A stretch of DNA of 32,000 nucleotides, taken from assembly GCA_018401935.1 (NCBI GenBank), contig JAGYJQ010000011.1, positions 41,840 through 73,839 of the forward strand. Direction: 5' to 3'. Source of the stretch: Balneolaceae bacterium. GTDB lineage: Bacteria; Bacteroidota; Rhodothermia; Balneolales; Balneolaceae. The translations under genes were made by a program, and so were the position numbers. Shown here piece by piece: positions 358-31,459 of the stretch. The first letter of the stretch is position 1; the number at the start of each line of letters is the position of its first letter. The notes beneath the pieces are model-generated. The model ran no database searches, was not told where the DNA came from, and worked only from the letters and a program-made list of their open reading frames with translations.

Positions 358-1173
358 TTGAATCCTCTAGGCTTTCTCGATTTTGGATTATTGGATTTTC
401 TAGAGACGCTAATTATAGCAGGAGCTTTAGTTGGTGTCTACCGTTGGATCCGTGGAACCTACGCCATTCGCGCAGGTGTGGGTATTTTATTTCTCCTGCT
501 CATCAATTTTATTATCCGATTATTTGGATTCACCACCATCGATTTTATTTTAAGCGCCATTCTTGATGTAGGTATTTTAGCTGTATTTATCATATTTCAA
601 CCAGAAATAAGAGGGCTTTTATACCGAATAGGTCAGAATCCTTCTATTCGATTATTTGGTGGTAAGTCCAGTACGGAGCAGGTTATTGATGAAGTTATAA
701 ATGCGGTTAAGCATATGTCAACTGAGTATATCGGTGCCCTTATCGTGTTTGCGCCTCCTTCTGGTGCCTTGAATTATGACAATACAGGGACGCAACTCGA
801 TTCGGTAGTAAAACAAAAATTATTGGTGAGTATCTTTAGAAAAGAATCTCCACTGCACGATGGAGCTGTTATTATCCGCAATAACCGGATTACTGCGGCA
901 GGTTGCTTCCTGTCTTTGTCCGAAAATCCTAATTTAAGTAAATCACTAGGTACTCGTCACCGAGCAGCAATTGGCATGTCCGAAAATAATAATATGTTTG
1001 TTATTGTCGTCTCAGAAGAAACCGGCCGTATATCGGTAGCTCAAAACGGTAATTTAAACAGTGGACTTAGTATCCAGCGCCTCCGTAAAGAAATGGAGAG
1101 TAGTTTTTCTTTGACTAAGTTTAAAGAAGAAGTAGCCTTTTCAGCACCGCAAACGGAAATGAATCTGAAATAA
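358..1173 (+). CDS. cdaA: Diadenylate cyclase CdaA/DacA (c-di-AMP synthase), three N-terminal TM helices plus a DAC domain
   Basis: The DAC catalytic motifs are present (HDGAVII and GTRHRAAIG). The N-terminus is hydrophobic. The folP-cdaA arrangement is common in Bacteroidota-like genomes. The start is a TTG at 358 and is uncertain. Confidence 0.88.
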   Translation: MNPLGFLDFGLLDFLETLIIAGALVGVYRWIRGTYAIRAGVGILFLLLINFIIRLFGFTTIDFILSAILDVGILAVFIIFQPEIRGLLYRIGQNPSIRLFGGKSSTEQVIDEVINAVKHMSTEYIGALIVFAPPSGALNYDNTGTQLDSVVKQKLLVSIFRKESPLHDGAVIIRNNRITAAGCFLSLSENPNLSKSLGTRHRAAIGMSENNNMFVIVVSEETGRISVAQNGNLNSGLSIQRLRKEMESSFSLTKFKEEVAFSAPQTEMNLK

Positions 1174-1205
1174 TTTGGGGCCTGCTAACCAGCAGCGGGT
1201 CGTAA

Positions 1206-2549
1206 TTACCCGGAATTGCGTTCTAAGAAATGAGTATTTCCCTGTACTCTATATAGACTTCGAGCGGTCTGAACGGTGCCTTTTCCATAGCGATTATTGA
1301 TACGATCAATGGCTTGATAACGCTGAGTATGTTCGGCTTCGTCCCGAAAAAATAGATTCATTTGACTGGTTTTATCCATGTCTTGAGTGCTTATCATTAG
1401 ACTGCGAATGGCCATTTTTCGCCGGCAAAAAGAGTCAATGAGCTCAGCTAATTCTCTCATGCACGCGTCATACACATATTTGGTTATGTGAGTAAAACTA
1501 GGAGTTACAAAGCGGAACCCTATGCTAGGATAGTCATTTTTGTCAAAACCAATATGCCCCCCAAAACTACTCGATCGTATGCCGTAGGCCCGCATTCGGT
1601 AGCAGATCATCTCGATTCCAATAGCCAATTCACCTTTAATAGCTTCTGGGTCGGTACTTCCTTCGGAAAAGGTATGCCCATAACTGACGCCCCACTTAGG
1701 TGAATATTCATGATTTTCTTCGAGTATTCGGCCTTGATCTTGGCCGGTAATCGTTTCAAAAAGCATACGCCCAAAATGGGGTCCAAATAGACGTACAAAG
1801 GTGTTGGGCTCATTGTGTTTTACCACATCTCGTATACGCTCATATCCTTCGGCTAGGAGATGTTCATAGCGCCTTCGCCCTACGCCCCATACTTCGTTGA
1901 GCGGTAAAGGGTGTATATATATTCGCTCATCTTCCTTGCTTAGAATAAGAGAAATACCGCGGGGCTTATCCAATCCGCTGGCTAGCTTAGCATAGGTTTT
2001 GGATCGAGCAACTCCAATAGAGCCATACAGTCCCGTGGTTTCCACGATGTCGCGTTGCAGTTGTTGTGCAAACGTCCGGATTTGAGGTTCTTCTTTGCCC
2101 AAAAGAAAACTTGCGTCCATAAAATACTCATCCATCGAGTAGCGCTCTATTTGGTGTGAGTAGCGATTCATAATATGATGCACCTGCGTTGATATAGCGG
2201 CATAGCTAGCGTAGTCTACCTGAAGCATGCATACGTAGGGGCATCGCTTGTAAGCCTCATAGGCACTCATTCCTGTTTTAATCCCCATCGAACGTGCTTC
2301 ATAAGAGGAGGTGGCTACAATACCTTTAACGGTTCCATTTTCTTTTCTCCAGCCACCCACAATAAGGGGGATTCCGTACATATTCTTTCGGAGTTGCTCT
2401 ACTTGCGCGTAAAAACAGGCAAAGTCGAAATGCACATATAAGCGGTCTTTTCGATGGCGATGTTGGTGTTCTGGGTATACCGTATTGTAGAGAGTAATAC
2501 GATGTACATCTTGTTCGGCTTGATATGAATAGTCATTTTTTTTTGGCAT
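1206..2549 (-). CDS. Y-family DNA polymerase (Pol IV/UmuC-like translesion polymerase) with a ~36-aa N-terminal extension
   Basis: The Y-family catalytic motifs are present: HFDFACFYAQVEQ (motif I Asp) and SMDEYFMD (the Asp-Glu of SxDEAFLD). The start is ATG at 2547-2549. Length is 447 aa. Confidence 0.85.
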   Translation of the reverse strand: MPKKNDYSYQAEQDVHRITLYNTVYPEHQHRHRKDRLYVHFDFACFYAQVEQLRKNMYGIPLIVGGWRKENGTVKGIVATSSYEARSMGIKTGMSAYEAYKRCPYVCMLQVDYASYAAISTQVHHIMNRYSHQIERYSMDEYFMDASFLLGKEEPQIRTFAQQLQRDIVETTGLYGSIGVARSKTYAKLASGLDKPRGISLILSKEDERIYIHPLPLNEVWGVGRRRYEHLLAEGYERIRDVVKHNEPNTFVRLFGPHFGRMLFETITGQDQGRILEENHEYSPKWGVSYGHTFSEGSTDPEAIKGELAIGIEMICYRMRAYGIRSSSFGGHIGFDKNDYPSIGFRFVTPSFTHITKYVYDACMRELAELIDSFCRRKMAIRSLMISTQDMDKTSQMNLFFRDEAEHTQRYQAIDRINNRYGKGTVQTARSLYRVQGNTHFLERNSG

Positions 2550-2595
2550 AAATTACTCCGCTATTGATATGTACAATATATGTGTGTAATTTAAA

Positions 2596-3258
2596 ATGAC
2601 CAAACAAATATTGGTCATGAACAACTTTCCCCTTGTAGAAATGCTCGCTTTTTTCCCCCGCTATTCAGATGTGCACACTTTTGATTGGAGGCCCCGCTAT
2701 GTACGGCAGGTACGTCATATTAGATCCTGTCACACTAAGACGCTGGGAGGGGTGCAATATTCATTTTTTAGTATTGTGACTCAACAAGGAGAAGCCATGG
2801 ATGTACGCTTTAATCATGATGAATTACTTTGGGACATAGTAGCGCTGCCTGGATCCGAGTTAGCCATCCATAGCAAAGATGGCTCTCATTTTGTTATTGA
2901 TCGAATACTGGTGCACCAACAGCGGCACAAGCATCAGCCTTCTTTGGCGCATCGTATGCGCCCTATCCGTTTTGAGTGGCTTCCTTACGCCCAGTGCGCG
3001 AGACAGAGCCCTATTGAACATGCCAAGATAGACCGCATGCATCCGTATCGTTTTTTAAAAGGAAAAAATAGTTCCTATCAGGTCTATCGGATAGAAACGC
3101 GTCACCTAGAAGATGTGATGGTCACCCGGCATTTCCATTATGTTGTTGAGGATACCGAGCGGCGGTTCTATCATGTAGTATACATATTGGATCAGGGAGA
3201 TTGGCGGTTTATACAAGAAGTAGATGAACAGTTCTTATTTCATCGGTCTAGTCCCTAA
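2596..3258 (+). CDS. Hypothetical His/Arg/aromatic-rich protein with a possible internal duplication
   Basis: A 220-aa ORF lies 46 bp from, and divergent to, the Y-family polymerase. I recognise no family motif. Two halves share F(D/E)WxP and hydrophobic-xxDxxxWxhh patterns (FDWRP...VRFNHDELLWDIV versus FEWLP...VVYILDQGDWRFI). Confidence 0.55.
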   Translation: MTKQILVMNNFPLVEMLAFFPRYSDVHTFDWRPRYVRQVRHIRSCHTKTLGGVQYSFFSIVTQQGEAMDVRFNHDELLWDIVALPGSELAIHSKDGSHFVIDRILVHQQRHKHQPSLAHRMRPIRFEWLPYAQCARQSPIEHAKIDRMHPYRFLKGKNSSYQVYRIETRHLEDVMVTRHFHYVVEDTERRFYHVVYILDQGDWRFIQEVDEQFLFHRSSP

Positions 3259-3278
3259 TAGCGGGCCAAACAGTATGA

Positions 3279-3995
3279 TTAGAATAACCGTAATTCGGGT
3301 TCGATAAGATGAGGCCCGTTGTTACGTACGTTCCCAACAGCAGGAGGAACGATATGGCTTTTAAGTCCGTCGTCGGGATAGGGGTCCAATAGGTAGTTCA
3401 AATCTTCTATATTCAATTGTGGATTTAACCAATGAGTCCATTCAGATGAATGTAAAAAGACAGGCATACGGTCATGAATGTCTTGCATGGTTGCATTGGG
3501 TCGAGTGGTCAAAATAGAAAACGAGTAAAGAGAGTCCAATGGGCTTAAGGGAGAATAAAAGCCCGCTGCAAAAAGAATAGAGTTATTGACCGCTTGTATA
3601 TAGTGAGGAGTTTTATTCCCTTTTGTGCCGGACCATTCAAAAAAACCGTTCATTGGGACAAGGCATCGCTGCGTAGATACGGATCGCCACATGGGTTTTT
3701 CGACTATCTGTTCGGACCGCGTGTTAATGGGTAGTAGGGGGCGGCTTCCTGCCTTCGGTTTCCACCCCATAAATCCCCAATGCATGGGTATCCGTATTAA
3801 TTGGGGAGTATCGGTAGCGGGTTGAAGGATAACCGGTACGATATGGCTGGGCGCTATATTATAAGAAGGTAGTGTATGAGCGGTTTTCTGCAGATGTTGT
3901 TTTCCAAAAACTCCGTCGGCTTCGTTTGGTTCCGAAGATCCAGTCAGTGTGTCTATGGTATTCAAGTCACTAAAAAGAGTGTATCGTCCGCACAT
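3279..3995 (-). CDS. yedK: SOS-response-associated peptidase (SRAP; YedK/HMCES family abasic-site processing protein)
   Basis: The protein begins MCGRYTLF, the hallmark SRAP N-terminus in which Cys2 is the catalytic nucleophile. I therefore place the start at ATG 3993-3995 rather than the upstream TTG at 4076 used by the ORF track. SRAP-like motifs follow (YNIAP, PMxxWG, FFEW). Confidence 0.9.
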   Translation of the reverse strand: MCGRYTLFSDLNTIDTLTGSSEPNEADGVFGKQHLQKTAHTLPSYNIAPSHIVPVILQPATDTPQLIRIPMHWGFMGWKPKAGSRPLLPINTRSEQIVEKPMWRSVSTQRCLVPMNGFFEWSGTKGNKTPHYIQAVNNSILFAAGFYSPLSPLDSLYSFSILTTRPNATMQDIHDRMPVFLHSSEWTHWLNPQLNIEDLNYLLDPYPDDGLKSHIVPPAVGNVRNNGPHLIEPELRLF

Positions 3996-4129
3996 AATAA
4001 CAGGAGGGTTATGATGTTTTTCTAGGATAAACTTTCGACGTCGTACCTTATAAATTATCGTTTTTATAGGGCGCAAAACCAGGGTGCAAAAAGGGCAGTA
4101 TTAACCTGAGGGAAAAGCGATGGTTACAT

Positions 4130-4798
4130 CTAATAGTAAATGCGAATAACGATTCGACGATTCGCCGCTCTGTTCTCTACAATATCTCGGCCAAATTCGT
4201 CTACATGGGGAAGTACAGGCTTGGTGTCGGCGTAGCCTGAGGCTTTTAAACGATCACTTTCCACCCCTTCACGAATAAAAAATTTAACCACTTCAGAGGC
4301 GCGGGCCACAGAAAGTTCCCAATTCGATGGAAATCGAGGGGTATTAATAGGAACATTATCGGTGTGACCTTCCACATCAACCCGAAATTGGTAATAACCT
4401 AAAACATTAAGCGCCTGGGTTACCTTGGTAATGATACGCTCACCTGAGGGGAGTAACACAGCCTCTCCAGAGTTGTAGAGAGAGCTACTGTTAAAGGATA
4501 ATACAATTCCATTTTTGTCTAATACTATCCCAACTAAGCCTTGATTACGTTCTTCAAGGAGTAGAGAGTCTAGGTCAATTTTTATTTCGGCTAAAGGAGT
4601 CTCGACTTTTTCTTTACCCGCTACATCCGAGCGCATACCTTGTTTCATCTGCTCCCAGAGGGCAATATCCGTTTGAGAAACAGCAATCAACATGGCAAAA
4701 AAGGCGAGCAACAAGGTAATCATGTCGCTATAGGTCAATAGCCACTCCTGATCCTCTTCTGCCTCGTCTAGTCCACCGTTTTGTTGTCTGCGTTTCAT
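4130..4798 (-). CDS. motB: MotB-family stator subunit: single TM with the conserved Asp, a plug-like helix, and an OmpA-like peptidoglycan-binding domain
   Basis: WLLTYSDMITLLLAFFAML carries the proton-binding Asp equivalent. The C-terminal OmpA-like domain reads VEGHTDNVPI...SNWELSVARASEVVKF...GYADTKPV. Confidence 0.85.
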   Translation of the reverse strand: MKRRQQNGGLDEAEEDQEWLLTYSDMITLLLAFFAMLIAVSQTDIALWEQMKQGMRSDVAGKEKVETPLAEIKIDLDSLLLEERNQGLVGIVLDKNGIVLSFNSSSLYNSGEAVLLPSGERIITKVTQALNVLGYYQFRVDVEGHTDNVPINTPRFPSNWELSVARASEVVKFFIREGVESDRLKASGYADTKPVLPHVDEFGRDIVENRAANRRIVIRIYY

Positions 4799-4832: not shown

Positions 4833-5648
4833 TTATTCAGCCTTCTGCTTTTTAAAATCTCGCTGTAAGTAGGTACTTAACTTATCCTGAATATAGAAAG
4901 AGGACTTCTTATCGTTAATCAAGATGATACCCTCAAGTAAAAAATATTCTCGGAATTTATTGATTTGAGCGGCATTTTTAATTTTCTCTGCTAACGGATA
5001 AAATACAAAGCGCGCAAAAATAATCCCGTATAGAGTAGTCATCAAGGCCGCCGCTAAACCAGGTCCCATGTTGGATGGATCATCCAGCTCGCCCAGCATG
5101 ACGATAAGTCCGAATAGCGTACCAAACATACCAAATGAAGGGGCAGCTCCACCCATGGCACGTAGAACGTCTACAATGACCATTTGGCGGAAATAGTTTT
5201 CCTCGATATGATTAGATCCAAATGTTTCTATATCGTCGCTTGAATAGTTGGTGCTGAGTAGAGAGAAAAGATATCCCGAAATTTCACCCCCATGCTCACT
5301 CTCCAATTTGTTCAACGCCCCTACACGGTCTTTTTTAATATCATCACTCCACTCAACCACAGTTTCAAAATCTTTTTGAAGTGTTTTTTTGGATGTTTTA
5401 GCTTGGCTAAACAAGTGAATAATACCGACTAATGCTTTGCCCACATACCGTGGTTGATAAGTAATTAACGAGGCTTGTAATACTCCACCTAGTACGATGA
5501 ATAAACTTGGAATATTTAAAAAAGGATTGCCGGCCAACGCGGGAATAGATTCAATAAAGGTGGTTACACCTATAGTTTCGGTGACACCAATTGCCAGCAT
5601 TCCGAAACAGAACAGTACTCCAATAACACTTCCGATTGAAATTTTCAT
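4833..5648 (-). CDS. motA: MotA/PomA-family stator subunit with 4-TM topology and a ~100-aa cytoplasmic loop
   Basis: Two N-terminal TM helices are followed by a charged loop, then TM3 (AAPSFGMFGTLFGLIVML) and TM4 (GPGLAAALMTTLYGIIFARFVFYPLAEKI). Both conserved MotA prolines are present. The gene lies directly upstream of motB. Confidence 0.85.
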   Translation of the reverse strand: MKISIGSVIGVLFCFGMLAIGVTETIGVTTFIESIPALAGNPFLNIPSLFIVLGGVLQASLITYQPRYVGKALVGIIHLFSQAKTSKKTLQKDFETVVEWSDDIKKDRVGALNKLESEHGGEISGYLFSLLSTNYSSDDIETFGSNHIEENYFRQMVIVDVLRAMGGAAPSFGMFGTLFGLIVMLGELDDPSNMGPGLAAALMTTLYGIIFARFVFYPLAEKIKNAAQINKFREYFLLEGIILINDKKSSFYIQDKLSTYLQRDFKKQKAE

Positions 5649-5651
5649 AAT

Positions 5652-6308
5652 CTATTGTCCTCCGCGGATCTCTTGAATTAAGGTTTCTAATTCAGGAATA
5701 CTTGGAATAGGAATATTTGGGTCCATTTGAACCGCTCGGTTCCAGTTAGCGCGTGCCGCCGTAATATTTTCAAGCATAAAGAAAATAGTACCTTTTAATG
5801 CATAGGCATCTGCCGTTTCCTGTACCTCAAGGGTTTTGTCAATAAACTCTAAGGATTGTCGATACTCTCCTAGGTAAAACAAATCTTGAGCTTTTCGATA
5901 ATTAGAAAGCAACGATTGAATATCTTTTGCTCGATTCTGAACCAAACTAGAGTCGATTACCATCACAGAATCTTTATCTGCTGGTCGCATCCCGCGTAAG
6001 TCCAGATAAAATTGTTCTTTTGAAGGGTCTAGTTTAATCTGAATATTTGAACTTTCATTAAGGTAGTTTACCGTAATCACTTCATTTGAAGGACTATCTT
6101 CCGTGGTGTTTGCAGAACTACGCTGGGTATTGGTATTTACCGTACGCCGATTGGCGTTCTCTAACTGGTTAGAAGAATTGCTTTGAACCGACTCAGGTGT
6201 TGCGCAACTCATGGTGAATGCAAGCTGAAAAGCTACCAATAAAGCTACTAGAGTTGTCTTAGTGCTTAGTGCAATATGCTTAGAATCGTATGACGGCATG
6301 GAATCCAA
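5652..6308 (-). CDS. Predicted lipoprotein with a Ser/Asn/Thr-rich linker and C-terminal TPR-like repeats
   Basis: A signal peptide ends in the lipobox-like AFTMSC. A low-complexity linker follows, then TPR-like helices (AQDLFYLGEYRQSLEFIDKTLE...AYALKGTIFFMLENITAARANWNRAVQMDPN). Its start overlaps the upstream gene by 20-29 nt (ATG at 6308 or 6299). Confidence 0.6.
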   Translation of the reverse strand: MDSMPSYDSKHIALSTKTTLVALLVAFQLAFTMSCATPESVQSNSSNQLENANRRTVNTNTQRSSANTTEDSPSNEVITVNYLNESSNIQIKLDPSKEQFYLDLRGMRPADKDSVMVIDSSLVQNRAKDIQSLLSNYRKAQDLFYLGEYRQSLEFIDKTLEVQETADAYALKGTIFFMLENITAARANWNRAVQMDPNIPIPSIPELETLIQEIRGGQ

Positions 6309-7473
6309 ACCCTGATTTATTATAGGTTAAGCGATCTTTATTGGACAGTTTAATAGTCTCACCCGCTAACATAAGATTACCAAATACTGAGAGACCTATA
6401 TTCTTGCTAAGATGAAATTGTAGACCAGGTTCAAGCATGAACACCTCTCCCTGTCTATTATTTCCCAATGGAAATTGCACGTTGGCCCTTGAGTAAAAGA
6501 CCACCCTATATTCATCGATATCGGGTACTTTTTCGGATATAGCTTGATGATAAATCAAACCCACATCAAACAGTGACATATCAAAAACAGTTATATCCCG
6601 GTTCGTAGAGCGTAATACATGGTAACCAGCGGTAAATCCAATGTAAGCTTTGTTTTGCAAATCCAAAGGTTGACGGTAGGAAATCGTCATGCTAAAATCG
6701 GTCATTGCTTGGCGTAAAAGGGTATCGGCTTGATGTACAAACGTATTGCCGCTACCCGTATCCGTACTATCCGAACCTACCCCTGCTCCTGCTCCTACAC
6801 CTGTAGTATCGTTTTGGATAGACCCATTGGCATATTGGTTTCTGTACCAGCTATCGGACCCTCTAGAGGTGACGCCAAAGGTAAGGATGAATTGCGATCC
6901 CTGATTTAATGTAGGTAGTACTACTGGAGGATTCGAGATGAACGACTTACTCCATACCACTTCTCTGGATTGAGGATTCATCACCCGAATCCCTATGACT
7001 AGCCCTTCGGGTTCTCTGCGTTGTAGGCTTAATTCAACAAGGCCTTGTACACCGTACTTGTAGGCAATCTCTTCAAGCATTTCTGGTGAAACATCGGCCA
7101 ATGAACGACCTTGCATATTTAAAATCTGGAGGGTAGAATCATTACCAACAATTTTCAATTTATCGTTAGGCTCTAATTCAGGTGGTGATAACACAGTAAG
7201 ACCAGCGTATTGCCGTAGTGAATACTCTATTTCAGCTCTGATGTATTCAATTTCTTCATTGGTGAAGCGTAGAGCGGAATAGTTAATTTTGTAAATAGCG
7301 ACCCGACGTACCGAAGCTGGAAAGTCACTAAGTTCAGGGTTTAAGCGCTCTTGGATTTTTTCAACCATGTAAGGATCTCCTTGATCATGGGTGAATAACT
7401 GAGCGAGTCCATTTTTTGGCAGACCTAAACTGCCTAAAAGGATCAGAGTTAAAAATATAAACGTCCGTTTCAT
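6280..7473 (-). CDS. Predicted outer-membrane protein: signal peptide, periplasmic alpha/beta domain, and C-terminal beta-barrel-like region ending in Phe
   Basis: The signal peptide is MKRTFIFLTLILLGSLGLPKNGLA. The N-terminal domain shows the pattern VAIYKINY...GVQGLVELSL...LVIGIRVMNPQSREVVWSKSF, which recalls FlgO/LpoB/CsgG-type periplasmic domains (eyeballed only). The C-terminal half has alternating hydrophobic strands and the terminal residues AVIRF typical of OM beta-barrels. Confidence 0.5.
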   Translation of the reverse strand: MKRTFIFLTLILLGSLGLPKNGLAQLFTHDQGDPYMVEKIQERLNPELSDFPASVRRVAIYKINYSALRFTNEEIEYIRAEIEYSLRQYAGLTVLSPPELEPNDKLKIVGNDSTLQILNMQGRSLADVSPEMLEEIAYKYGVQGLVELSLQRREPEGLVIGIRVMNPQSREVVWSKSFISNPPVVLPTLNQGSQFILTFGVTSRGSDSWYRNQYANGSIQNDTTGVGAGAGVGSDSTDTGSGNTFVHQADTLLRQAMTDFSMTISYRQPLDLQNKAYIGFTAGYHVLRSTNRDITVFDMSLFDVGLIYHQAISEKVPDIDEYRVVFYSRANVQFPLGNNRQGEVFMLEPGLQFHLSKNIGLSVFGNLMLAGETIKLSNKDRLTYNKSGFGFHAVIRF

Positions 7474-7476
7474 TAC

Positions 7477-9381
7477 TTAGGCTTCCGTTTTCATTTTTCG
7501 GCGAACCGCATAAAGAACGGCTTTTTGAGCGTCTTCAATATCTGCTTTTGAAGCATCTGAAGGGTTATCTACTTCTGACAAAATAAGTTGTTGTTCCCGT
7601 TTTGGGCGCACCTTCAATATCTTCTCACGTACAGCAGCGGGGGCTGTGCGGAGTGCAAGTATAAGAGTCTCTGTGGGGATTTCGTCCAAGGCTGATTGGA
7701 CAAATTCATTTTTGACTTTGGGTAAATCATCGAATCCGATAAAGAAGCGGCGAATTTTCTTAGCCAGTTCTAAATCTTGCTCTGCAATGGAGCGAACATA
7801 CGCATCCTGATCAGACAGTGGCATAGTCTCAATGGTGTTTAGAATAGATTCAATTCCATCAGCGGCCACATATTTCATATCTGAAACAGCGAGTGCTTTA
7901 TTTGAGAAATGGGAAGCCACTTTCTTGTACACAGAGATAGGGATACTGTTGATTTTACCCATTTTTAACAGGATAGAAATCCGTTTCTCATCATCCATTT
8001 TTTGTAGAATAACTCCGGCTCTTTCCCCGGCTATCTGCGCTAATAAAATAGAAACCATTTCATCCGACTCATCCTTCATTAAATGCAAGAGTTGCTGATC
8101 GGTTAATTGGTCCACAAAATCAAATAGGCTTGCACCTCCACCTTCCGCTTCGGTGGGCGCTTTATATTGGGTCAGACTCTTGCGGAAGCTTTCTACTTCA
8201 TCTATGCGCTCTTCCAAAGGAATACTTTCGGCATTGTCTAAGCCGTAGTTGAGCATCTCAAAGGTTGTGGCGTCCATGTGTGGTCGTAGAATTTGAATGA
8301 GTTTATCGTCCACACTCACAAAACTTCGTACAGCCTTAACTACCCCTTGCTCTTCGTCTTCTGTAATCCATTTACTCACCACATTGGCGACAATTTTTGG
8401 TTTACTAATGCAATTATTGGCAATGAAGGTCTTATTTTCTTCGAATCTGGCAAGTTCCTTGGCAGAAGGTCCTTTAGGTGCTTCGGGGTCTTTTTGCCCC
8501 CCTTGCATAGGCATATTAGGGATATTCATTCCCTCATAGCCAGGAGGATACATACCAGGTAAGGTTTCTTTTCTCTTGGGTTTGCGAAGTAGTGCAAAAA
8601 GTAAAGCGACTAAGAATAAAATTCCCAATCCCAAAATAACAAATAGAAGGTGTTGTGGGTTATTCCAATCTATGCCCAAAAACATCTTTTTTTCAGGTTC
8701 AGCAGTAACGGTCTGAATAACTGTGTCAGGAACAGCTGGTATAATTTCATTTTGAACTTCTTCCTCAGGCTCTTCTTCTACAATCGTTGTAGTATCAATC
8801 AATTGGGCTGGGCTGGGTGCAGTGGGCTTCTTAATATCTTGTTCAATGGCACGACTGTTTCGTGGAAATACTTTTTTACTTACGGATACAATATCACCCC
8901 GAAATTCATCCGCGTTAGCAATTAATGAGGCTGCTTCTTCTACGAAATCTACATCTTCGTCACTGTATGAGGTATCTACGAGTACCTTGATGTTCAGTCT
9001 AGTGAGTTGAAAACGTGCATCAAATCCAGAAGCCTTTAGGCTATCCTGCCCCGTAGGCCTATTCGATTGAAGATTGGGTGGGATAAAGGGTAGGCCTGGT
9101 AAGTTTTCAATCTTAATATCTTCCTGTGGTTGAACGACTTGATACCCTTTAGGAACTAAAATCCGCTCTAGTGTGGCCTTAACATCTACAATAAAAGTAC
9201 CCTCTCGGTAGTAATCTGAGAGCGCATTGTCTAAAACAACTTCGTAATATCGTTCGTATTTAGCCGCTTCTTCCTGCACATCTGCAGACGAATTCTGTCC
9301 CGGCACTGTTTGCCCGGTTACGATCATACTCTGAAGCGCAATAATGCCCGTAAGAGCAAGAATTTTAAGGTTTCCTGCCAT
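7477..9381 (-). CDS. Membrane-anchored FliF-like/FliG-like fusion protein (putative rotor)
   Basis: - Residues 1-24 are a hydrophobic signal peptide or TM1.
- Residues ~25-243 are periplasmic and end in QLTRLNIKVLVD...ADEFRGDIVSVSKKVF. This resembles the end of the FliF periplasmic ring region (RLSVAVVVD...RGDxLxVxxSPF).
- Residues 244-265 form a TM helix (nt 8587-8652) followed by RKPKRK, then a Pro/Gly/Met-rich linker.
- Residues ~305-634 are colinear by eye with full-length FliG. Examples are LFDFVDQLTDQQLLHLMKDE..VSILLAQI..ERAGVILQKMDDEKRISILLKMGKINSI and RRFFIGFDDLPKVKNEFVQSALDEIPTETLILALRTA..AVREKIL.
- The torque-helix-like C-terminus reads PKREQQLILSEVD...KADIEDAQKAVLYAVRR. Confidence 0.7.
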   Translation of the reverse strand: MAGNLKILALTGIIALQSMIVTGQTVPGQNSSADVQEEAAKYERYYEVVLDNALSDYYREGTFIVDVKATLERILVPKGYQVVQPQEDIKIENLPGLPFIPPNLQSNRPTGQDSLKASGFDARFQLTRLNIKVLVDTSYSDEDVDFVEEAASLIANADEFRGDIVSVSKKVFPRNSRAIEQDIKKPTAPSPAQLIDTTTIVEEEPEEEVQNEIIPAVPDTVIQTVTAEPEKKMFLGIDWNNPQHLLFVILGLGILFLVALLFALLRKPKRKETLPGMYPPGYEGMNIPNMPMQGGQKDPEAPKGPSAKELARFEENKTFIANNCISKPKIVANVVSKWITEDEEQGVVKAVRSFVSVDDKLIQILRPHMDATTFEMLNYGLDNAESIPLEERIDEVESFRKSLTQYKAPTEAEGGGASLFDFVDQLTDQQLLHLMKDESDEMVSILLAQIAGERAGVILQKMDDEKRISILLKMGKINSIPISVYKKVASHFSNKALAVSDMKYVAADGIESILNTIETMPLSDQDAYVRSIAEQDLELAKKIRRFFIGFDDLPKVKNEFVQSALDEIPTETLILALRTAPAAVREKILKVRPKREQQLILSEVDNPSDASKADIEDAQKAVLYAVRRKMKTEA

Positions 9382-22734: not shown

Positions 22735-25434
22735 ATGGTCAGTTTTTGTAATCAATACCGTATAAAACGGGGGGTAATGCCGATTCTAGGTGTGACGGCA
22801 CTTTTTTTAGTTGTCTGCTTTGAGAATGAAATAGTAGCAGCTCAAAATGTACTACCTGAGCAACTGCACGAAGCCTTGCACATTCGTAGCATAGACCCCG
22901 TGCAAACTTCTAGTGTACAACAGGATGTACCTTTCGAGCTTAGCCCACCGCAAGGTTTTTATTCAGATTCGGTTGAATTAAGGCTGCTGAACAAGCAGCC
23001 AGGTTGGGACTATTATTTCAATGTTCAGGGGAAAAAACCAGTTGATTGGGTGTTCCCAGAAGAGGGCATTACACTCAAAGCTTCGAATGTACTGAGAATC
23101 TTGGCCATTCAACCCGAAGAACAGGATACCGTTGAAGGTTTTTATACCTATTTGTTGAACCAACAACACGACCTGCCAGTTTTATCTCTCATTTTTGAAC
23201 CGGATGATTTCTTTTCAGGGGACCGAGGTATTTATGTGAAAGGCTCAAACGGAATACCGGGTTATTGTAGAAGTACCCCACATAATTGGAATCAGGACTG
23301 GGAGCGCCCTATACAGATGACTCTTTTTGAGCTAGATGAAAACGCTTCAGGAGTTCCTGCATTCTCGGTGCCCGCAGGGGTAAAGATTGGGGGTGGATGT
23401 ACTCGTCTGTACGATCAAAAATCATTGGATTTTTACTTTCGTTCGGACTATGGACTCTCCCGGTTGAACTATCCGCTATTCCCAGATAAGCCGATTACCG
23501 AGTTCAATCGTCTATCGCTTCGAAATGGAGGACAGGACTGGTACCGCGCTATGATTCGAAATGCTTTTTCTCAAGAACTAGTACGTGGGAGGATGGACCT
23601 AGGATATCAATCCTACAAGCATGTGGCTGTTTATTTTAATGGGCAGTACTGGGGGATTCACACGCTTCGGGAAAAGCAAAACGAAGATTTTATTGAATCC
23701 AATTATGGAGTAGATGCCGATGCTATTGATGTACTATCGGGTAATGCATCAGTGGGTGAGGGTTCTTCGGCGCATTACGAACAGATGCTGGAATATGTGA
23801 GTGAGAATGGGTTAGAAGATTCGGTGCATTATGCATGGCTACAAGAACGTATGGATGTAGAACAATATATGGACTACCTCATTGCCGAAATTTTCTTAGC
23901 GAATGGGGACTGGCCGGCCAATAATATAAAGTATTGGAGGGCGCAATCGGATACGGGCAAGTGGCGCTGGATTTTGTATGATGCGGATATGACTATGGAT
24001 AGCCACTCTCGAGGTCGTCTAGAAACGAATATGTTTGAAAAAATGCATATGCTCACCGAAACCAATTATGAGCATCCGGCTTGGGCTACCCTACTAATGC
24101 GTAAACTGTTAGAGAATCCAGAATTTAGGGCTTCTTTTATACAGCGTTATAGTGTGCATTTACACCTTAGTTTTAATCCAAGCAGGTCACTGGCTTTAAT
24201 GGATAGTATGGCCGGATTAATAGCGGCTGAAGTGCCGGATCATATGCGACGTTGGTCCAAAACCATGCGCTTAGGTAATGATATGAATTGGGAAAAACAC
24301 TTGGAGGTCATGCGCGATTTTTTGAGCCAAAGACCCGACAAAGAAAGGGAACACATCGAGAGTTTTTTCGGAACGGGACCTTTACACAGCCTTATTACAA
24401 GGGTAAACCGTGCAAAATCGGGAGTTATTCGGGTCGAAGGGGTTCGAAGTGACACCACTGACTATGTGCTATTATATAAAGGTATACCTGTCCAACTTCG
24501 AGCTATACCCGCAGCGGGATACCGGTTTGTACGCTGGGAAGGCTTCATTGAATCTAATAGTACAGATGTGGAGATTATCCTAGAAGAAAATAGTGAGGTT
24601 AAAGCCATCTTCGAACCCATTACAGCCACGCAAACCAGTGAGGTGGTCATTAACGAGATTCATTATAATGCCGCAGATACCAAGGATTCTGGTGATTGGG
24701 TTGAGTTACACAATCCGAATGACTATGCAGTGGATGTGAGTTATTGGTTTTTCTCAGACTCAGACGATGCACATCGATACTACTTTGCTCCAGGTAGTTT
24801 GTTGGCAGAAGGAGGTTTCCGGGTATTGGTACGAAAGCCAGAAGATTTTGCTGCTGTGTATCCTACCGTGAGTGTGGCGGAAGGTCCCATTGGATTTGGG
24901 TTTTCTGGTTCTGGGGAGTTGTTGCGCCTGTTTAATGCGCAGGGGCAGTTAGTAGATTCAGTCCGATATGACGATCAGTCTCCTTGGCCAACGGCTGCGG
25001 ACGGACAAGGAGCTAGTTTAGCCCTTGTAAATCCATTATTAGATAATGCCCAGGCTCGATTTTGGAGTGCTTCTGCAAATGGAGGAACTCCAGGGGGACC
25101 TAATCTGGATGTATTAGTAGCCAATGAATTGGTTGAGAACCCCTTGAATAATGCAGATAGCCCGTACCAGACTCAGCTTGGCAACAATTATCCGAACCCG
25201 TTTAATCCGACCACAACTATCCCCTTTAGTTTAGAAAAAGCTTCAAAGGTGAAACTCACCGTTTATGACATGCTTGGGCGCTCAATACAAACATTAATGA
25301 ACGAATATCGTTCAGCAGGGACTCATGAAGTCCGTTTCAGTGCCGGCATGGCTGGGCTATCGAGTGGTTTATATATGTATAGTTTAGAGTTTGATGGTGA
25401 GCGAATAACAAAAACAATGCTACTTTTAAAATAA
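22735..25434 (+). CDS. Secreted multidomain protein: CotH kinase-family domain, lamin-tail domain (LTD), and T9SS C-terminal sorting domain
   Basis: - The N-terminus is a signal peptide.
- The CotH-like core includes VAVYFNGQYWGIHTLREKQNEDF and WRWILYDADMT.
- The LTD reads VVINEIHYNA...GDWVELHNP...GELLRLFN...SVRYDD..PWP..ADGQGASL.
- The last ~80 aa (NYPNPFNPTTTIPFSL...GLYMYSLEFDGERITKTMLLLK) match the Por/T9SS type-A CTD pattern. Confidence 0.85.
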   Translation: MVSFCNQYRIKRGVMPILGVTALFLVVCFENEIVAAQNVLPEQLHEALHIRSIDPVQTSSVQQDVPFELSPPQGFYSDSVELRLLNKQPGWDYYFNVQGKKPVDWVFPEEGITLKASNVLRILAIQPEEQDTVEGFYTYLLNQQHDLPVLSLIFEPDDFFSGDRGIYVKGSNGIPGYCRSTPHNWNQDWERPIQMTLFELDENASGVPAFSVPAGVKIGGGCTRLYDQKSLDFYFRSDYGLSRLNYPLFPDKPITEFNRLSLRNGGQDWYRAMIRNAFSQELVRGRMDLGYQSYKHVAVYFNGQYWGIHTLREKQNEDFIESNYGVDADAIDVLSGNASVGEGSSAHYEQMLEYVSENGLEDSVHYAWLQERMDVEQYMDYLIAEIFLANGDWPANNIKYWRAQSDTGKWRWILYDADMTMDSHSRGRLETNMFEKMHMLTETNYEHPAWATLLMRKLLENPEFRASFIQRYSVHLHLSFNPSRSLALMDSMAGLIAAEVPDHMRRWSKTMRLGNDMNWEKHLEVMRDFLSQRPDKEREHIESFFGTGPLHSLITRVNRAKSGVIRVEGVRSDTTDYVLLYKGIPVQLRAIPAAGYRFVRWEGFIESNSTDVEIILEENSEVKAIFEPITATQTSEVVINEIHYNAADTKDSGDWVELHNPNDYAVDVSYWFFSDSDDAHRYYFAPGSLLAEGGFRVLVRKPEDFAAVYPTVSVAEGPIGFGFSGSGELLRLFNAQGQLVDSVRYDDQSPWPTAADGQGASLALVNPLLDNAQARFWSASANGGTPGGPNLDVLVANELVENPLNNADSPYQTQLGNNYPNPFNPTTTIPFSLEKASKVKLTVYDMLGRSIQTLMNEYRSAGTHEVRFSAGMAGLSSGLYMYSLEFDGERITKTMLLLK

Positions 25435-29581: not shown

Positions 29582-30311
29582 ATAGTAACAACAGCCGAAA
29601 AGGGAACCATCTTTCAACCCTCCAACCCCTAGAGGTCAGTACGTCCAGTTCGTCTTTTCGAAAACTTTTCTTAAGGCTAGTGCGCCCGTCCTCGTAAATA
29701 AACGAAGATCTAAATCGTAGAGGAAACAGGCAAAGGCTAAAGAGGTTGAAAGCCAAGCTACTGCGTTCTAAATCATTACATATAACAATCGTACCCAGTG
29801 CAGCACATTCGGTTAAAAAAGGCTTAATTTCATCTAAGGATATATGATGGAGGACATGGTTATTCATGACTAAGTCTACTTTGTGGCCACGATTTACCAG
29901 TTCAGTCGTAGAAAGGCATTCAAAAAATAGCCCAGTAGAGTTATTGTTGTTTATATGGGCTGTTTCGGTTTGCACTGACCTATTGGCCTTGGCCCACTGT
30001 ATTGCGCGGTCGTCAATATCAATACCGGTAATATGTGCGCTAATCCCGTCCTTTTTTAGCCACTGAAACAAAAAAAAGGCGATATCGCCACCTCCACAAC
30101 CTACATCTAGCACGTGAAATATTTTTCCCTGTTTCTGAATTTCTTTCGCCTTTGGACGAATATACTTGGCATACACTCTATTCCACTGAGACACGAATCT
30201 ATTTAAGGTATAGAAATCGGCATAGGTTTGTTCGAGTTGCTTGCTATCGGCGTTGGCAGCATCCATTTGTTCGGTGAGATGAGCTTGTCGTTGGCTCAAA
30301 AGAGTACACAT
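29556..30311 (-). CDS. Class I SAM-dependent methyltransferase (SrsB-like)
   Basis: Motif I is VLDVGCGGGDI. I prefer the ATG at 30309-30311, which lies 7 nt after the PKS stop, over the overlapping TTG at 30332. Confidence 0.8.
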   Translation of the reverse strand: MCTLLSQRQAHLTEQMDAANADSKQLEQTYADFYTLNRFVSQWNRVYAKYIRPKAKEIQKQGKIFHVLDVGCGGGDIAFFLFQWLKKDGISAHITGIDIDDRAIQWAKANRSVQTETAHINNNNSTGLFFECLSTTELVNRGHKVDLVMNNHVLHHISLDEIKPFLTECAALGTIVICNDLERSSLAFNLFSLCLFPLRFRSSFIYEDGRTSLKKSFRKDELDVLTSRGWRVERWFPFRLLLLYEGERGRA

Positions 30312-30318
30312 AGGCTTT

Positions 30319-31440: not shown

Positions 31441-31459
31441 AGTACTACTACAATAAAGC

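What the first reader, a model, noticed from the sequence alone, without database searches (positions are those of the whole stretch)
7477..9381. Natural FliF-like/FliG-like single-chain protein that retains torque-helix charges
**Architecture read from the translation**
- A hydrophobic N-terminus.
- A ~215-aa periplasmic part ending with RLNIKVLVD-x26-RGDIVSVSKKVF, encoded at nt 8866-9021. This resembles the terminal ring-building motif of FliF.
- A TM helix at residues 244-265 with positive-inside RKPKRK.
- A P/G/M-rich tether (PGMYPPGYEGMNIPNMPMQGGQ).
- About 330 aa colinear by eye with the N, M and C domains of Thermotoga/E. coli FliG.

**Torque-helix region**
- It reads PKREQQLILSEVDNPSDASKADIEDAQKAVLYAVRR.
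- Basic and acidic residues sit at positions that align by eye with the E. coli FliG charged residues known to contact MotA (Lys/Arg before the helix, an acidic pair, a terminal Arg-Arg).

**Differences from canonical flagellar proteins**
- The FliG_M EHPQ motif is replaced by DESDE.
- The periplasmic part is far shorter than the FliF periplasmic region, which carries three ring-building motifs (FliF is ~560 aa in total).
- Both points argue for a divergent, non-canonical rotor.
Basis: partly seen in the sequence, partly recalled or inferred. Interest (0 to 1): 0.8.

Follow-up and report, generated by a model that had tools for sequence, protein, structure and literature searches.

The report
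Flagellum-less FliF–FliG rotor with own stator
This gene encodes a natural fusion of the two flagellar rotor proteins (a cut-down FliF joined end-to-end to a complete FliG) and heads a conserved five-gene cluster with its own MotA/MotB stator and outer-membrane partners but no other flagellar genes, which suggests a flagellar-type rotary motor working without a flagellum.

Summary
ORF 7477-9381(-) encodes 634 aa. In order it has a cleavable signal peptide, one FliF RBM3-like ring-building domain with a long beta-hairpin, one TM helix, a disordered P/G/M-rich linker, a FliF C-terminal-tail-like helix pair, and a complete FliG (N, M and C domains).

- **Homology:** sequence profiles, HH-suite and Foldseek on a confident AF2 model (pLDDT 84) all identify FliG and FliF RBM3/collar. 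MgtE is excluded.
- **Context:** the gene heads a tightly packed cluster with an outer-membrane 8-strand barrel protein that has an LpoB/TolB-N-like periplasmic domain, a TPR lipoprotein, PomA-like MotA, and plug-bearing MotB.
- **Distribution:** the family has more than 100 clusters at 50% identity. Seven of ten distant contexts keep MotA next to the fusion (six also MotB), and none has any other flagellar gene.
- **Conserved and lost sites:** the R281 equivalent is 98% basic across the family and the D289 equivalent is acidic in 54%. The FliM-binding EHPQR motif and RBM1/RBM2 are absent.

Best reading: an ion-driven rotor-stator machine without export apparatus, rod or filament, whose output is unknown. 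The only precedent I found is the much smaller Chlamydia FliF-FliG(M) fusion. Whether the host also has a canonical flagellum could not be tested.

The parts
7477..9381 (-). Gene 1: FliF(RBM3)-TM-FliF tail::FliG fusion protein, 634 aa
   Evidence: ORF. Pfam FliG_C and FliG_M. Profile hits to FliG and FliF in PDB. AF2 pLDDT 84. Foldseek to FliG and to FliF RBM3/collar.
9316..9381 (-). Signal peptide, aa 1-22 (predicted cleavage VTG|Q)
   Evidence: 118/125 family members have a hydrophobic core plus an AXA-like site, and 91 have Gln at +1. Cleavage is inferred, not shown.
8863..9285 (-). Periplasmic RBM3-like domain, aa 33-173: helix 33-55, long strands 63-82 and 115-136, helix 141-154, strand 164-170
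   Evidence: AF2. Foldseek to FliF RBM3/collar chains 6sd1_A, 7cg7_A, 8ftf_A and 8z5v_A, E 2e-4 to 9e-4, TMt 0.46-0.55. hhalign to E. coli FliF 373-435, E=4e-7. Pfam YscJ_FliF_C in 21/46 members, best 1.6e-5.
9088..9102 (-). LPGLP motif, aa 94-98, in the loop joining the two long strands; candidate partner-binding tip
   Evidence: L94 86%, P95 98%, G96 98%, L97 85%, P98 90% in 125 sequences. The functional role is inferred.
8866..8901 (-). RGDIVSVSKKVF, aa 161-172: last strand of RBM3, shared with FliF
   Evidence: R161 81%, G162 94%, D163 99%, F172 85%. Aligns to E. coli FliF 'KRGDSLNVVNSPF' and Vibrio FliF 'RGDLLNV'.
8587..8658 (-). Single transmembrane helix, aa 242-265, followed by RKPKRK (positive-inside)
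   Evidence: Hydropathy 3.1. AF2 helix 242-265. A TM helix at the equivalent place in nearly all family members.
8464..8586 (-). Disordered P/G/M-rich cytoplasmic linker, aa 266-306
   Evidence: AF2 pLDDT 47-53 and no secondary structure.
8347..8463 (-). Helix pair aa 307-345 resembling the FliG-binding C-terminal tail of FliF (P328, W338, G346 conserved)
   Evidence: hhalign: E. coli FliF 531-551 aligns to aa 323-343, E=7e-5, probability 63%. The Salmonella FliF match runs to its last residue. P328 78%, W338 80%, G346 82%. Moderate support only.
7480..8346 (-). Complete FliG (N, M and C domains), aa 346-634
   Evidence: hhalign: E. coli FliG 6-321, probability 99.1%, E=6e-19. Foldseek to full-length FliG chains 8wiw_3 and 3hjl, E about 1e-10, 307-327 columns.
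7498..7605 (-). Torque-helix region, aa 593-628; R595 = E. coli R281, E603 = D289
   Evidence: Alignments. Family conservation: R595 98% basic, E603 54% acidic, P593 85%.
6280..7473 (-). Gene 2: signal peptide + periplasmic alpha/beta domain (LpoB / TolB-N / PelC-like fold) + 8-stranded outer-membrane beta-barrel, 397 aa
   Evidence: No Pfam hit. Invariant C-terminal Phe. AF2 pLDDT 72.7 with barrel blocks mostly 84-96 (range 67-96). Foldseek to OmpA, OmpW, NspA and Ail (TMt 0.55-0.62) and to LpoB (0.63). The N-domain is conserved in distant L014 (hhalign 98%).
5652..6308 (-). Gene 3: probable lipoprotein with a small conserved domain and a C-terminal TPR pair, 218 aa (true start may lie downstream of the TTG)
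   Evidence: Pfam TPR_1 6.7e-8. Cys after the hydrophobic segment, and conservation in L016 and L017.
4833..5648 (-). Gene 4: MotA/PomA-type stator A subunit, 271 aa
   Evidence: Pfam MotA_ExbB. PDB PomA 2.3e-24. NCBIfam MotP/PomA 1e-31 to 1e-33 against TolQ 7e-4. Equivalents of E. coli P173 and P222 are invariant.
4130..4798 (-). Gene 5: MotB-type stator B subunit with plug, channel Asp25 and OmpA-like peptidoglycan-binding domain, 222 aa
   Evidence: Pfam MotB_plug 1.4e-14 and OmpA 2.3e-13. The WxxTY[SAGL]D...FF motif is kept in all 8 cluster MotBs examined.

Best explanation
The gene encodes the rotor subunit of a flagellar-type, ion-driven rotary (or torque-applying) machine that works without a flagellum.

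**Shown here**
- The protein is an end-to-end fusion. It joins a FliF reduced to its last ring-building motif (RBM3 with a long hairpin), membrane helix and FliG-binding tail to a complete FliG.
- It is encoded with its own PomA-like MotA and plug-bearing MotB.
- The cluster also encodes a periplasmic/outer-membrane protein and a TPR lipoprotein.
- The cluster is conserved across a large family, and no other flagellar genes lie nearby.

**Inferred**
- After signal-peptide cleavage, the RBM3 domains assemble a periplasmic ring like the flagellar S-ring. This places an equal number of FliG domains as a ring under the membrane.
- MotA5B2 units anchor to peptidoglycan through MotB. They conduct ions through the MotB Asp25 channel and push on the FliG C-terminal torque helix (R595, E603), turning the ring.
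- With RBM1/RBM2 and the FliM-binding EHPQR motif gone, there is no export gate, rod or switch complex. The motor is probably unidirectional and not under chemotaxis control.
- The hairpin tip (LPGLP) would pass force to the gene 2 periplasmic domain, which is tied to the outer membrane by its barrel. The TPR lipoprotein may scaffold the assembly.
- What the force is used for (surface movement, secretion, envelope maintenance) is unknown.
For: **Identity of both halves**
-.
- The junction is precise: the FliF C-terminus aligns to aa 323-343, and FliG residue 6 aligns to aa 346.
- The AF2 model is confident (pLDDT 84).

**Flagellar-type stator**
- PomA 2e-24.
- MotP/PomA far better than TolQ.
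- MotB plug and OmpA domain.
- Channel Asp kept in 8/8 cluster MotBs examined, and MotA prolines invariant.

**Conserved cluster**
- The five-gene order recurs in 10 Balneolaceae loci with gaps of -34 to +39 nt.
- MotA lies within four genes downstream of the fusion in 7 of 10 distant contexts, at 21-34% identity: L014, L016, L017, L019, L022, L024 and L025. Six of these also show a plug-bearing MotB; in L024 the contig ends just after motA.
- No context contains any other flagellar gene (same calls, plus for the window).

**Selection on the interface**
- The R281 equivalent is 98% basic, and the MFxF hinge is kept as [FY][IV]TF.
- In the window's MotA, R108 and E116 are spaced 8 residues apart, like E. 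coli R90 and E98.

**Family size**
- 111 representatives score below 1e-30, and all 150 best are fusions or fragments of fusions.
- This argues for purifying selection rather than decay.

**Non-flagellar features**
- EHPQR is lost across the family.
- Only RBM3 is present.
- The gene 2 family includes a Gracilimonas MAG, and cultured Gracilimonas species are non-motile (PMC5167729).
Against: - Ring formation, stator docking and rotation are all inferred from homology; none was tested.
- No output element was identified.
- If gene 2 is fixed in the outer membrane, continuous rotation needs a slipping interface.
- Two of the five classical FliG charge positions are missing in this protein, and three are not conserved across the family.
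- The MotA acidic partner is not conserved in distant members, and the alignment there is uncertain by about 3 residues.
- Two distant contexts show no stator nearby (L015 and L023). One has a split motA (L017).
- Balneola vulgaris is flagellated (PMC5167729). I could not scan host genomes, so co-existence with a canonical flagellum, or an interaction with it, is not excluded.
- The FliF-tail match is only 63% probability.
Confidence: 0.6

Rival explanations
1. The parts are the same, but the machine does not rotate continuously. The FliG ring would be a docking platform through which MotAB applies PMF-dependent force or conformational change across the envelope, as Tol-Pal or TonB systems do. 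The purpose would be envelope maintenance or peptidoglycan/outer-membrane coordination.
For: - Gene 2's periplasmic domain has the LpoB / TolB-N fold and is tied to the outer membrane by a barrel.
- Gene 3 is a TPR protein, like CpoB of the Tol-Pal operon.
- MotB carries an OmpA/Pal-like domain.
- No axial or filament genes are present.
Against: - The stator is PomA/MotP-like with a plug, not TolQR-like (1e-33 against 7e-4).
- A complete FliG with a conserved torque-helix Arg and hinge is retained. That is hard to explain unless the MotA-FliG torque interface is in use.
- The parallels to Tol-Pal are at fold level only.
Confidence: 0.2
2. It is the MS-ring/C-ring protein of a conventional but divergent flagellum, and the remaining flagellar genes lie elsewhere in the genome.
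For: - Balneola vulgaris has flagella, and Balneolaceae are described as 'non-motile or motile by flagella' (PMC5167729).
- JGI annotates relatives as FliG.
- Laboratory FliF-FliG fusions assemble into MS-ring structures (PMC11481574, seen). From my own knowledge, Salmonella FliF-FliG fusion strains remain motile.
Against: - RBM1 and RBM2, which in known MS-rings sit around the export gate (background knowledge), are absent.
- The FliM-binding EHPQR motif is lost across the family.
- No flagellar gene appears in the 32-kb window or in 10 distant contexts.
- The partners are an outer-membrane barrel/LpoB-like protein and a TPR lipoprotein, not rod or ring proteins.
- A gene 2 homolog occurs in a MAG of Gracilimonas, a genus whose cultured species are non-motile.
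Confidence: 0.08
3. It is a decaying remnant of a lost flagellum with no present function.
For: - Rotor proteins without filament genes are reported in 11% of non-motile genomes (PMC12199754).
- motA is split in L017, and the stator is missing next to the fusion in L023.
Against: - ORFs are intact across more than 120 clusters, down to about 20% identity, with near-invariant motifs (LPGLP, RGD, FxF, R595).
- Gene order is conserved and includes three non-flagellar partners.
- The AF2 folds are confident.
Confidence: 0.03
4. The cytoplasmic region is an MgtE-N-type helical repeat used for Mg2+ or ligand sensing, not a FliG.
For: Weak Pfam MgtE_N hits: E=0.94 in the window protein, 36 of 46 members hit, best 6.7e-8.
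Against: - FliG beats MgtE by more than 40 orders of magnitude in the profile search: 9e-46 against 0.6-1.7.
- The FliG_C domain with the torque helix, which is not a feature of MgtE as far as I know, is hit in 46/46 members.
- Foldseek's top 13 hits are all FliG.
Confidence: 0.01

Closest known systems
Bacterial flagellar motor rotor: FliF MS-ring plus FliG, driven by MotAB/PomAB
   Same: - RBM3/collar-like fold.
- FliF C-terminal tail motif.
- FliG N, M and C domains.
- Torque-helix Arg (R281 equivalent) and an acidic D289 equivalent.
- MFxF-type hinge.
- PomA-like MotA with both conserved prolines.
- MotB with plug, channel Asp and OmpA-like domain.
   Different: - The two rotor proteins form one polypeptide.
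- RBM1 and RBM2 are absent, and the N-terminal TM helix is replaced by a cleavable signal peptide.
- The collar is reduced to one hairpin.
- The EHPQR FliM-binding motif is lost.
- No fliM/N, export-apparatus, rod, hook or filament genes lie nearby.
- The partners are an outer-membrane barrel/LpoB-like protein and a TPR lipoprotein.
Chlamydiaceae FliF-FliG fusion (Bergeron 2015/2016, bioRxiv 10.1101/023564)
   Same: A natural single-chain FliF-FliG with a shortened periplasmic region, found in a lineage not thought to be flagellated.
   Different: - The Chlamydia protein is about 330 aa.
- It keeps an RBM2-like domain plus one further RBM, and two TM helices.
- Its cytosolic part matches only the FliG middle domain, so it has no torque helix.
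- No stator association is described. It is proposed to work with the T3SS.
- The protein here has RBM3, a full FliG and a dedicated MotAB.
Engineered FliF-FliG fusions of Salmonella and Vibrio (e.g. PDB 8z4d; PMC11481574)
   Same: - End-to-end FliF::FliG in one chain.
- They assemble into MS/S-rings.
- PDB chain 8z4d_1 matches the family profile in three stretches.
   Different: - Laboratory constructs of about 945 aa with all three RBMs, working inside a complete flagellum.
GldLM motor of the Bacteroidota type IX secretion/gliding system, and Tol-Pal
   Same: - An ion-driven inner-membrane 5:2-type motor that passes energy across the periplasm to outer-membrane components without a flagellum.
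- Similar host lineage (T9SS substrates are encoded in the window).
- TPR and TolB-N/LpoB-like parts recall Tol-Pal.
   Different: - The stator here is a true flagellar-type MotAB.
- It is paired with a FliG ring in the cytoplasm.
- To my knowledge, GldLM and TolQRA have no FliG or FliF-like rotor; they transmit through a periplasmic arm of the motor itself.
Zorya ZorAB (MotAB-like anti-phage system)
   Same: MotB matches ZorB models.
   Different: No ZorA, ZorC or ZorD matches. The MotA is PomA-like.

Membership tests
FliG (flagellar rotor protein; Pfam FliG_N/M/C, TIGR00207) | Three-domain N-M-C architecture homologous to FliG | tested here: met
   hhalign to E. coli FliG 6-321, probability 99.1%. 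Foldseek to full-length FliG over 307-327 columns. Pfam FliG_C and FliG_M are above cut-off; FliG_N is just below (23.3 against 25) in this protein but is hit in 39/46 members.
FliG (flagellar rotor protein; Pfam FliG_N/M/C, TIGR00207) | Equivalog-level similarity to flagellar FliG (TIGR00207 cut-off 226.7 bits) | tested here: not met
   87 bits. It is a homolog, not an ortholog-grade FliG.
FliG (flagellar rotor protein; Pfam FliG_N/M/C, TIGR00207) | Charged torque-helix residues K264, R281, D288, D289 and R297 (E. coli numbering) | tested here: inconclusive
   In this protein they are R, R, S, E, S. Across the family: 11% basic, 98% basic, 17% acidic, 54% acidic, 14% basic. The key Arg is kept and the set is incomplete.
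FliG (flagellar rotor protein; Pfam FliG_N/M/C, TIGR00207) | EHPQR motif of the middle domain that binds FliM | tested here: not met
   DESDE in this protein. Across the family only the Glu is kept (101/125); the H, P and Q positions vary.
FliG (flagellar rotor protein; Pfam FliG_N/M/C, TIGR00207) | Soluble protein encoded among flagellar genes (fliE-fliF-fliG-fliH...) | tested here: not met
   It is membrane-anchored by fusion. No flagellar neighbours other than motAB.
FliF (MS-ring protein) | RBM3 with beta-collar and the RGD-containing last strand | tested here: met
   Foldseek to RBM3/collar chains, TMt 0.46-0.55. hhalign to FliF 373-435, E=4e-7. Profile against Salmonella FliF, E=4e-7.
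FliF (MS-ring protein) | RBM1 and RBM2 (PrgK-homology region) | tested here: not met
   The periplasmic region is about 215 aa with a single alpha-beta-beta-alpha-beta domain. No Pfam YscJ_FliF (PF01514) hit.
FliF (MS-ring protein) | Two transmembrane helices (uncleaved N-terminal TM1 and TM2) | tested here: inconclusive
   The TM2 equivalent is present. The N-terminal segment looks like a cleavable signal peptide in 118/125 members. Cleavage was not tested experimentally.
FliF (MS-ring protein) | C-terminal FliG-binding tail | tested here: inconclusive
   hhalign: E. coli FliF 531-551 aligns to aa 323-343, E=7e-5 but probability 63%. P328 and W338 are conserved.
FliF (MS-ring protein) | Assembly into a ring of about 33-34 subunits | not testable with these tools
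   Needs multimer modelling, purification or cryo-ET.
Flagellar-type stator MotAB/PomAB ('FIT' group of PMC12505986) | MotA with four TM helices, conserved prolines and an enlarged cytoplasmic torque-generating interface; closer to MotA/PomA than to TolQ/ExbB | tested here: met
   PomA 2.3e-24 over residues 30-263. NCBIfam MotP/PomA 1e-31 to 1e-33 against TolQ 7e-4. P170 and P218 are invariant. All scores are below the equivalog cut-offs.
Flagellar-type stator MotAB/PomAB ('FIT' group of PMC12505986) | MotB with plug, channel Asp and OmpA-like peptidoglycan-binding domain | tested here: met
   MotB_plug 1.4e-14 and OmpA 2.3e-13. Asp25 lies in WLLTYSD and is kept in all cluster MotBs examined.
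Flagellar-type stator MotAB/PomAB ('FIT' group of PMC12505986) | MotA charged pair R90/E98 (PomA R88/E96) | tested here: inconclusive
   The window MotA has K105, K106, R108 and E116, E118 with the right 8-residue spacing. The alignment is uncertain by about 3 residues, and the acidic site is not kept in distant members.
Zorya anti-phage system | ZorA plus ZorB together with ZorC/D/E | tested here: not met
   Only generic MotB-to-ZorB hits; no other PADLOC match.
MgtE N-terminal domain | Better match to MgtE_N than to FliG | tested here: not met
   MgtE E=0.6-1.7 against FliG 9e-46.

The most novel reading that the evidence does not exclude
A widespread, previously undescribed envelope-spanning rotary nanomachine. 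It would be a free-standing flagellar-type rotor (a FliF-RBM3::FliG ring) turned by its own MotAB stator, independent of any type III export apparatus, rod or filament. It would be coupled to an outer-membrane barrel/LpoB-like protein and a TPR lipoprotein. If its FliG and MotA branches fall outside, rather than within, the flagellar clades, it could be a surviving relative of the rotor-stator module that pre-dated, or evolved alongside, the flagellum.
Probability: 0.4. Interest if true: 0.95.

Novelty: new variant of a known kind. Interest (0 to 1): 0.82.

Why it matters
- FliG and MotAB are normally understood only as parts of the flagellum. A large, conserved family in which a minimal FliF-FliG rotor travels with its own stator but without export gate, rod, hook, filament or switch would show that the torque-generating core can be used on its own.
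- That would give a naturally minimised system for studying rotor assembly and the MotA-FliG interface, with 1:1 FliF:FliG stoichiometry fixed by fusion.
- It would point to an unknown PMF- or Na+-driven function in the envelope of marine Balneolaceae and of related uncultured lineages that are not yet placed taxonomically.
- It would make a long-standing question testable: could a rotor-stator module have had a selectable function independent of type III secretion during flagellar evolution?
- It also warns that genome surveys which score 'FliG' and 'MotAB' as flagellar markers will misclassify these organisms.

Tried and rejected
1. **MgtE-N reading.** Rejected.
2. **Zorya or another defence system.** Only MotB-to-ZorB hits.
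3. **SctJ/PrgK-type origin of the periplasmic domain.** PrgK reaches only E=0.077, against FliF RBM3 at 2e-4, and no PF01514 hit.
4. **Profile search of the 5.8-billion-protein database with the diverse alignment A1.** It returned the same close relatives, so that search was wasted. Organism names for distant members could not be obtained.
5. **N-terminal-only 13-sequence profile against PDB.** FliF hits were not significant on their own (E=0.07-0.11). The 125-sequence profile and hhalign were needed.
6. **hhalign of cluster MotA to E. coli MotA.** It aligned only TM3-TM4, so the R90/E98 mapping rests on less certain MAFFT and phmmer alignments.
7. **Sigma-70 promoter and terminator scan.** No better than shuffles.
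8. **The 331-aa hits P0225 and P0243.** I considered them as canonical FliGs or unfused intermediates. They are contig-end fragments.
9. **DUF6588 (L014) and the 388-aa protein (L019) upstream of the fusion.** Not homologous to gene 2.
12. **Literature.** Nine full-text searches found no description of this system. The only precedent was the Chlamydia fusion.


Full report
**1. The observation**

ORF 7477-9381 on the minus strand encodes 634 aa.
- a hydrophobic N-terminus (aa 5-23);
- RLNIKVLVD (aa 128-136) and RGDIVSVSKKVF (aa 161-172);
- a TM helix at aa 244-265, followed by RKPKRK;
- a P/G/M-rich tether (aa 275-296);
- DESDE (aa 437-441);
- the torque-helix string (aa 593-628).

Two details need correcting. 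The spacer between the two periplasmic motifs is 24 residues, not 26. The motif spans nt 8866-9000, not 8866-9021.

**2. Identity of the cytoplasmic half**

| Test | Result |
|---|---|
| Pfam FliG_C | E=2.8e-19 |
| Pfam FliG_M | E=4.6e-8 |
| Pfam MgtE_N | E=0.94 |
| TIGR00207 (fliG equivalog) | 87 bits, cut-off 226.7 |
| Salmonella FliG (phmmer) | E=3e-16 |
| 125-sequence family profile (A2) vs T. maritima FliG | E=9e-46 |
| Same profile vs MgtE | E=0.6-1.7 |
| HH-suite vs E. coli FliG 6-321 (query 346-634) | probability 99.1%, E=6e-19 |

The TIGR00207 score makes this a homolog of FliG, not an ortholog-grade FliG. An AF2 model built on the 125-sequence alignment is confident (mean pLDDT 84.1). 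Its best Foldseek matches are full-length FliG chains, at E about 1e-10 over 307-327 columns. All three FliG domains are therefore present.

**3. Identity of the periplasmic half and the junction**

The AF2 model shows helix 33-55, two strands of about 20 residues (63-82 and 115-136), helix 141-154 and strand 164-170. This is an alpha-beta-beta-alpha-beta ring-building motif with an extended hairpin. The evidence that it is FliF RBM3:
- After FliG, the next Foldseek hits are FliF RBM3/collar (S-ring) chains: 8z5v, 6sd1, 7cg7, 8ftf and 7d84. E-values run from 2e-4 to 9e-4 and TM relative to the target from 0.46 to 0.55. PrgK reaches only E=0.077.
- The family profile hits Salmonella FliF at E=4e-7 (residues 404-560) and Vibrio FliF at E=2e-7.
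- hhalign aligns E. coli FliF 373-435, including its RGD strand, to query 125-178 at E=4e-7.
- Pfam YscJ_FliF_C is hit by 21 of 46 diverse members.

The junction is close to end-to-end. The last residues of E. coli FliF (531-551 of 552), which form the FliG-binding tail, align to query 323-343 (E=7e-5, probability 63%). FliG residue 6 aligns to query 346. So the protein reads as a FliF without RBM1 and RBM2, joined directly to FliG.

The N-terminal hydrophobic segment looks like a cleavable signal peptide. 118 of 125 members have an AXA-like site, and 91 of these have Gln at +1. That pattern is typical of Bacteroidota as far as I know. The mature protein would then be single-pass, with FliG in the cytoplasm.

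**4. Context**

Four genes follow directly downstream on the same strand, with gaps of +3, -29, +3 and +34 nt:

| Gene | Window coordinates | Product | Evidence |
|---|---|---|---|
| 2 | 6280-7473 | 397 aa, no Pfam domain; invariant C-terminal Phe. AF2 (pLDDT 72.7) gives a periplasmic alpha/beta domain and an 8-stranded barrel. | Foldseek: OmpA, OmpW, NspA and Ail for the barrel; LpoB, TolB-N, GNA1162 and PelC for the N-domain |
| 3 | 5652-6308 | Probable lipoprotein with a TPR pair | |
| 4 | 4833-5648 | PomA/MotP-like MotA | PomA E=2.3e-24; MotP/PomA 1e-31 to 1e-33 against TolQ 7e-4 |
| 5 | 4130-4798 | MotB with plug, channel Asp25 and OmpA-like domain | |

The 32-kb window has no other flagellar gene.

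**5. Distribution**

- Close relatives are all Balneolaceae, and all ten complete Balneolaceae loci examined keep the five-gene order.
- The exhaustive search of 50%-identity representatives found 2,742 hits, 111 of them below 1e-30.
- All 150 best hits are proteins of about 580-750 aa with the same signal / about 200 aa / TM / FliG layout, or fragments of such proteins. Canonical FliGs rank below them.
- Ten distant contexts were sampled, at 21-34% identity. MotA lies within four genes downstream of the fusion in seven: L014, L016, L017, L019, L022, L024 and L025. Six of these also show plug-bearing MotB; in L024 the contig ends just after motA.
- An eighth context (L018) has a MotB-like gene at the contig edge. 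Two (L015 and L023) show no stator.
- None of the ten has any other flagellar gene.
- The gene 2 periplasmic domain is conserved even where the barrel is missing (L014, hhalign 98%). Gene 3 is conserved in L016 and L017.

**6. Functional residues**

Positions across the 125 members:

| E. coli FliG position | This protein | Family conservation |
|---|---|---|
| K264 | R578 | 11% basic |
| R281 | R595 | 98% basic |
| D288 | S602 | 17% acidic |
| D289 | E603 | 54% acidic |
| R297 | S611 | 14% basic |

- The MFxF hinge is kept as [FY][IV]TF.
- The EHPQR FliM-binding motif is lost except for its Glu.
- In the periplasm, LPGLP (aa 94-98, in the loop between the long strands) and R161-G-D163...F172-P173 are nearly invariant.
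- In MotA, both prolines are invariant.
- The window's MotA has K105, K106, R108 and E116, E118, with the 8-residue spacing of E. coli R90/E98. That alignment is uncertain by about 3 residues, and the acidic site is not conserved in distant members.

**7. Interpretation**

*Shown:* a natural truncated-FliF::FliG fusion, conserved together with a flagellar-type stator and envelope proteins, in a non-flagellar gene context.

*Inferred:*
- The RBM3 domains build a periplasmic ring that organises an equimolar FliG ring.
- MotAB units anchored to peptidoglycan turn this ring through the conserved Arg/Glu of the torque helix.
- Without RBM1/2 and EHPQR there is no export gate, rod or switch.
- The hairpin tip probably contacts the gene 2 periplasmic domain.

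The output is unknown. A Tol-Pal-like, non-rotary force transducer is the main rival, because of the LpoB/TolB-N fold, the TPR protein and the OmpA domain. A divergent true flagellum and a decaying relic are unlikely, for the reasons listed under the rival explanations.

I could not test whether the host also carries a canonical flagellum. Balneola vulgaris is flagellated, while Gracilimonas, Fodinibius and B. alkaliphila are non-motile (PMC5167729). A gene 2 homolog occurs in a Gracilimonas MAG.

**8. Comparison with what is known, and novelty**

- The parts belong to known families. The protein fails ortholog-level FliG and FliF membership: the TIGR00207 cut-off, EHPQR, RBM1/2 and the flagellar gene context.
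- The only natural FliF-FliG fusion I found in the literature is the roughly 330-aa Chlamydiaceae protein. Its cytosolic part matches only the FliG middle domain, and no stator link is described (bioRxiv 10.1101/023564).
- Engineered full-length FliFG fusions assemble rings (PMC11481574).
- A 2025 survey noted rotor proteins in 11% of non-motile genomes and raised the possibility of 'an alternative function', without describing a system (PMC12199754).
- The 2025 MotAB phylogeny treats plug-bearing stators with an enlarged torque interface as flagellar (PMC12505986). This cluster would be an exception.
- Nine full-text searches found no description of this cluster.

I rate it a new variant of a known kind, of high interest.

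Noticed in passing
window 28343-31993 (-): FAD-dependent monooxygenase, SAM methyltransferase, type III polyketide synthase (chalcone/stilbene synthase family) and a MatE transporter in a row. This looks like a small aromatic polyketide cluster.
   Followed up: no
window 22735-25434 (+): An 899-aa protein with CotH kinase, lamin-tail and InlB-B-repeat-like domains, ending in a type IX secretion C-terminal sorting domain. It marks the host as an FCB-group (Fibrobacterota-Chlorobiota-Bacteroidota) bacterium with a T9SS.
   Followed up: no
window 1206-4076: SRAP peptidase, an unknown 220-aa protein with no Pfam hit, and a Y-family (IMS) polymerase lie just downstream of motB. ORFs of matching length (~238 and ~447 aa) follow the cluster in L002-L007 (L001: 237 and 470 aa; L012: the 239-aa ORF only), but not in L010, L011 or L016. 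They are neighbours, not part of the module.
   Followed up: partly
window 4833-5648 (-), MotA residues T177, T204, T205: The cluster MotA keeps threonines where PomA has T158, T185 and T186 (motifs GTL and MTTLYG). From my own knowledge these positions are linked to Na+ coupling in PomA, so the stator of this marine organism may be sodium-driven. Untested.
   Followed up: no
L017 10000-10783; L023 7820-8826: In one distant cluster motA is split into two ORFs (142 and 137 aa). In another, two short unknown ORFs (132 and 78 aa) sit where motA-motB would be. This is either local decay of the stator or assembly error.
   Followed up: no
L018 393-7922 and L022 1420-7966: A second cluster type. Five similar-sized unknown genes (179-281 aa) and a protein of about 1000-1200 aa precede the fusion gene; in L018 this large protein has OmpA and CarboxypepD_reg hits, whereas the L022 one has no Pfam hit. 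In L022 the fusion is then followed directly by MotA-MotB. The accessory set appears to be modular.
   Followed up: no
L015 (GCA_043820105.1), gene at 998-3172: A 724-aa family member from a MAG labelled Pseudomonadota is flanked by TPR proteins (332 and 945 aa) and a 212-aa unknown protein. No MotAB is visible in the 11 kb available. It may be a stator-less or differently organised variant.
   Followed up: no
window 358-1173 (+): CdaA-type diadenylate cyclase (DAC domain plus CdaA_N), i.e. c-di-AMP synthesis.
   Followed up: no
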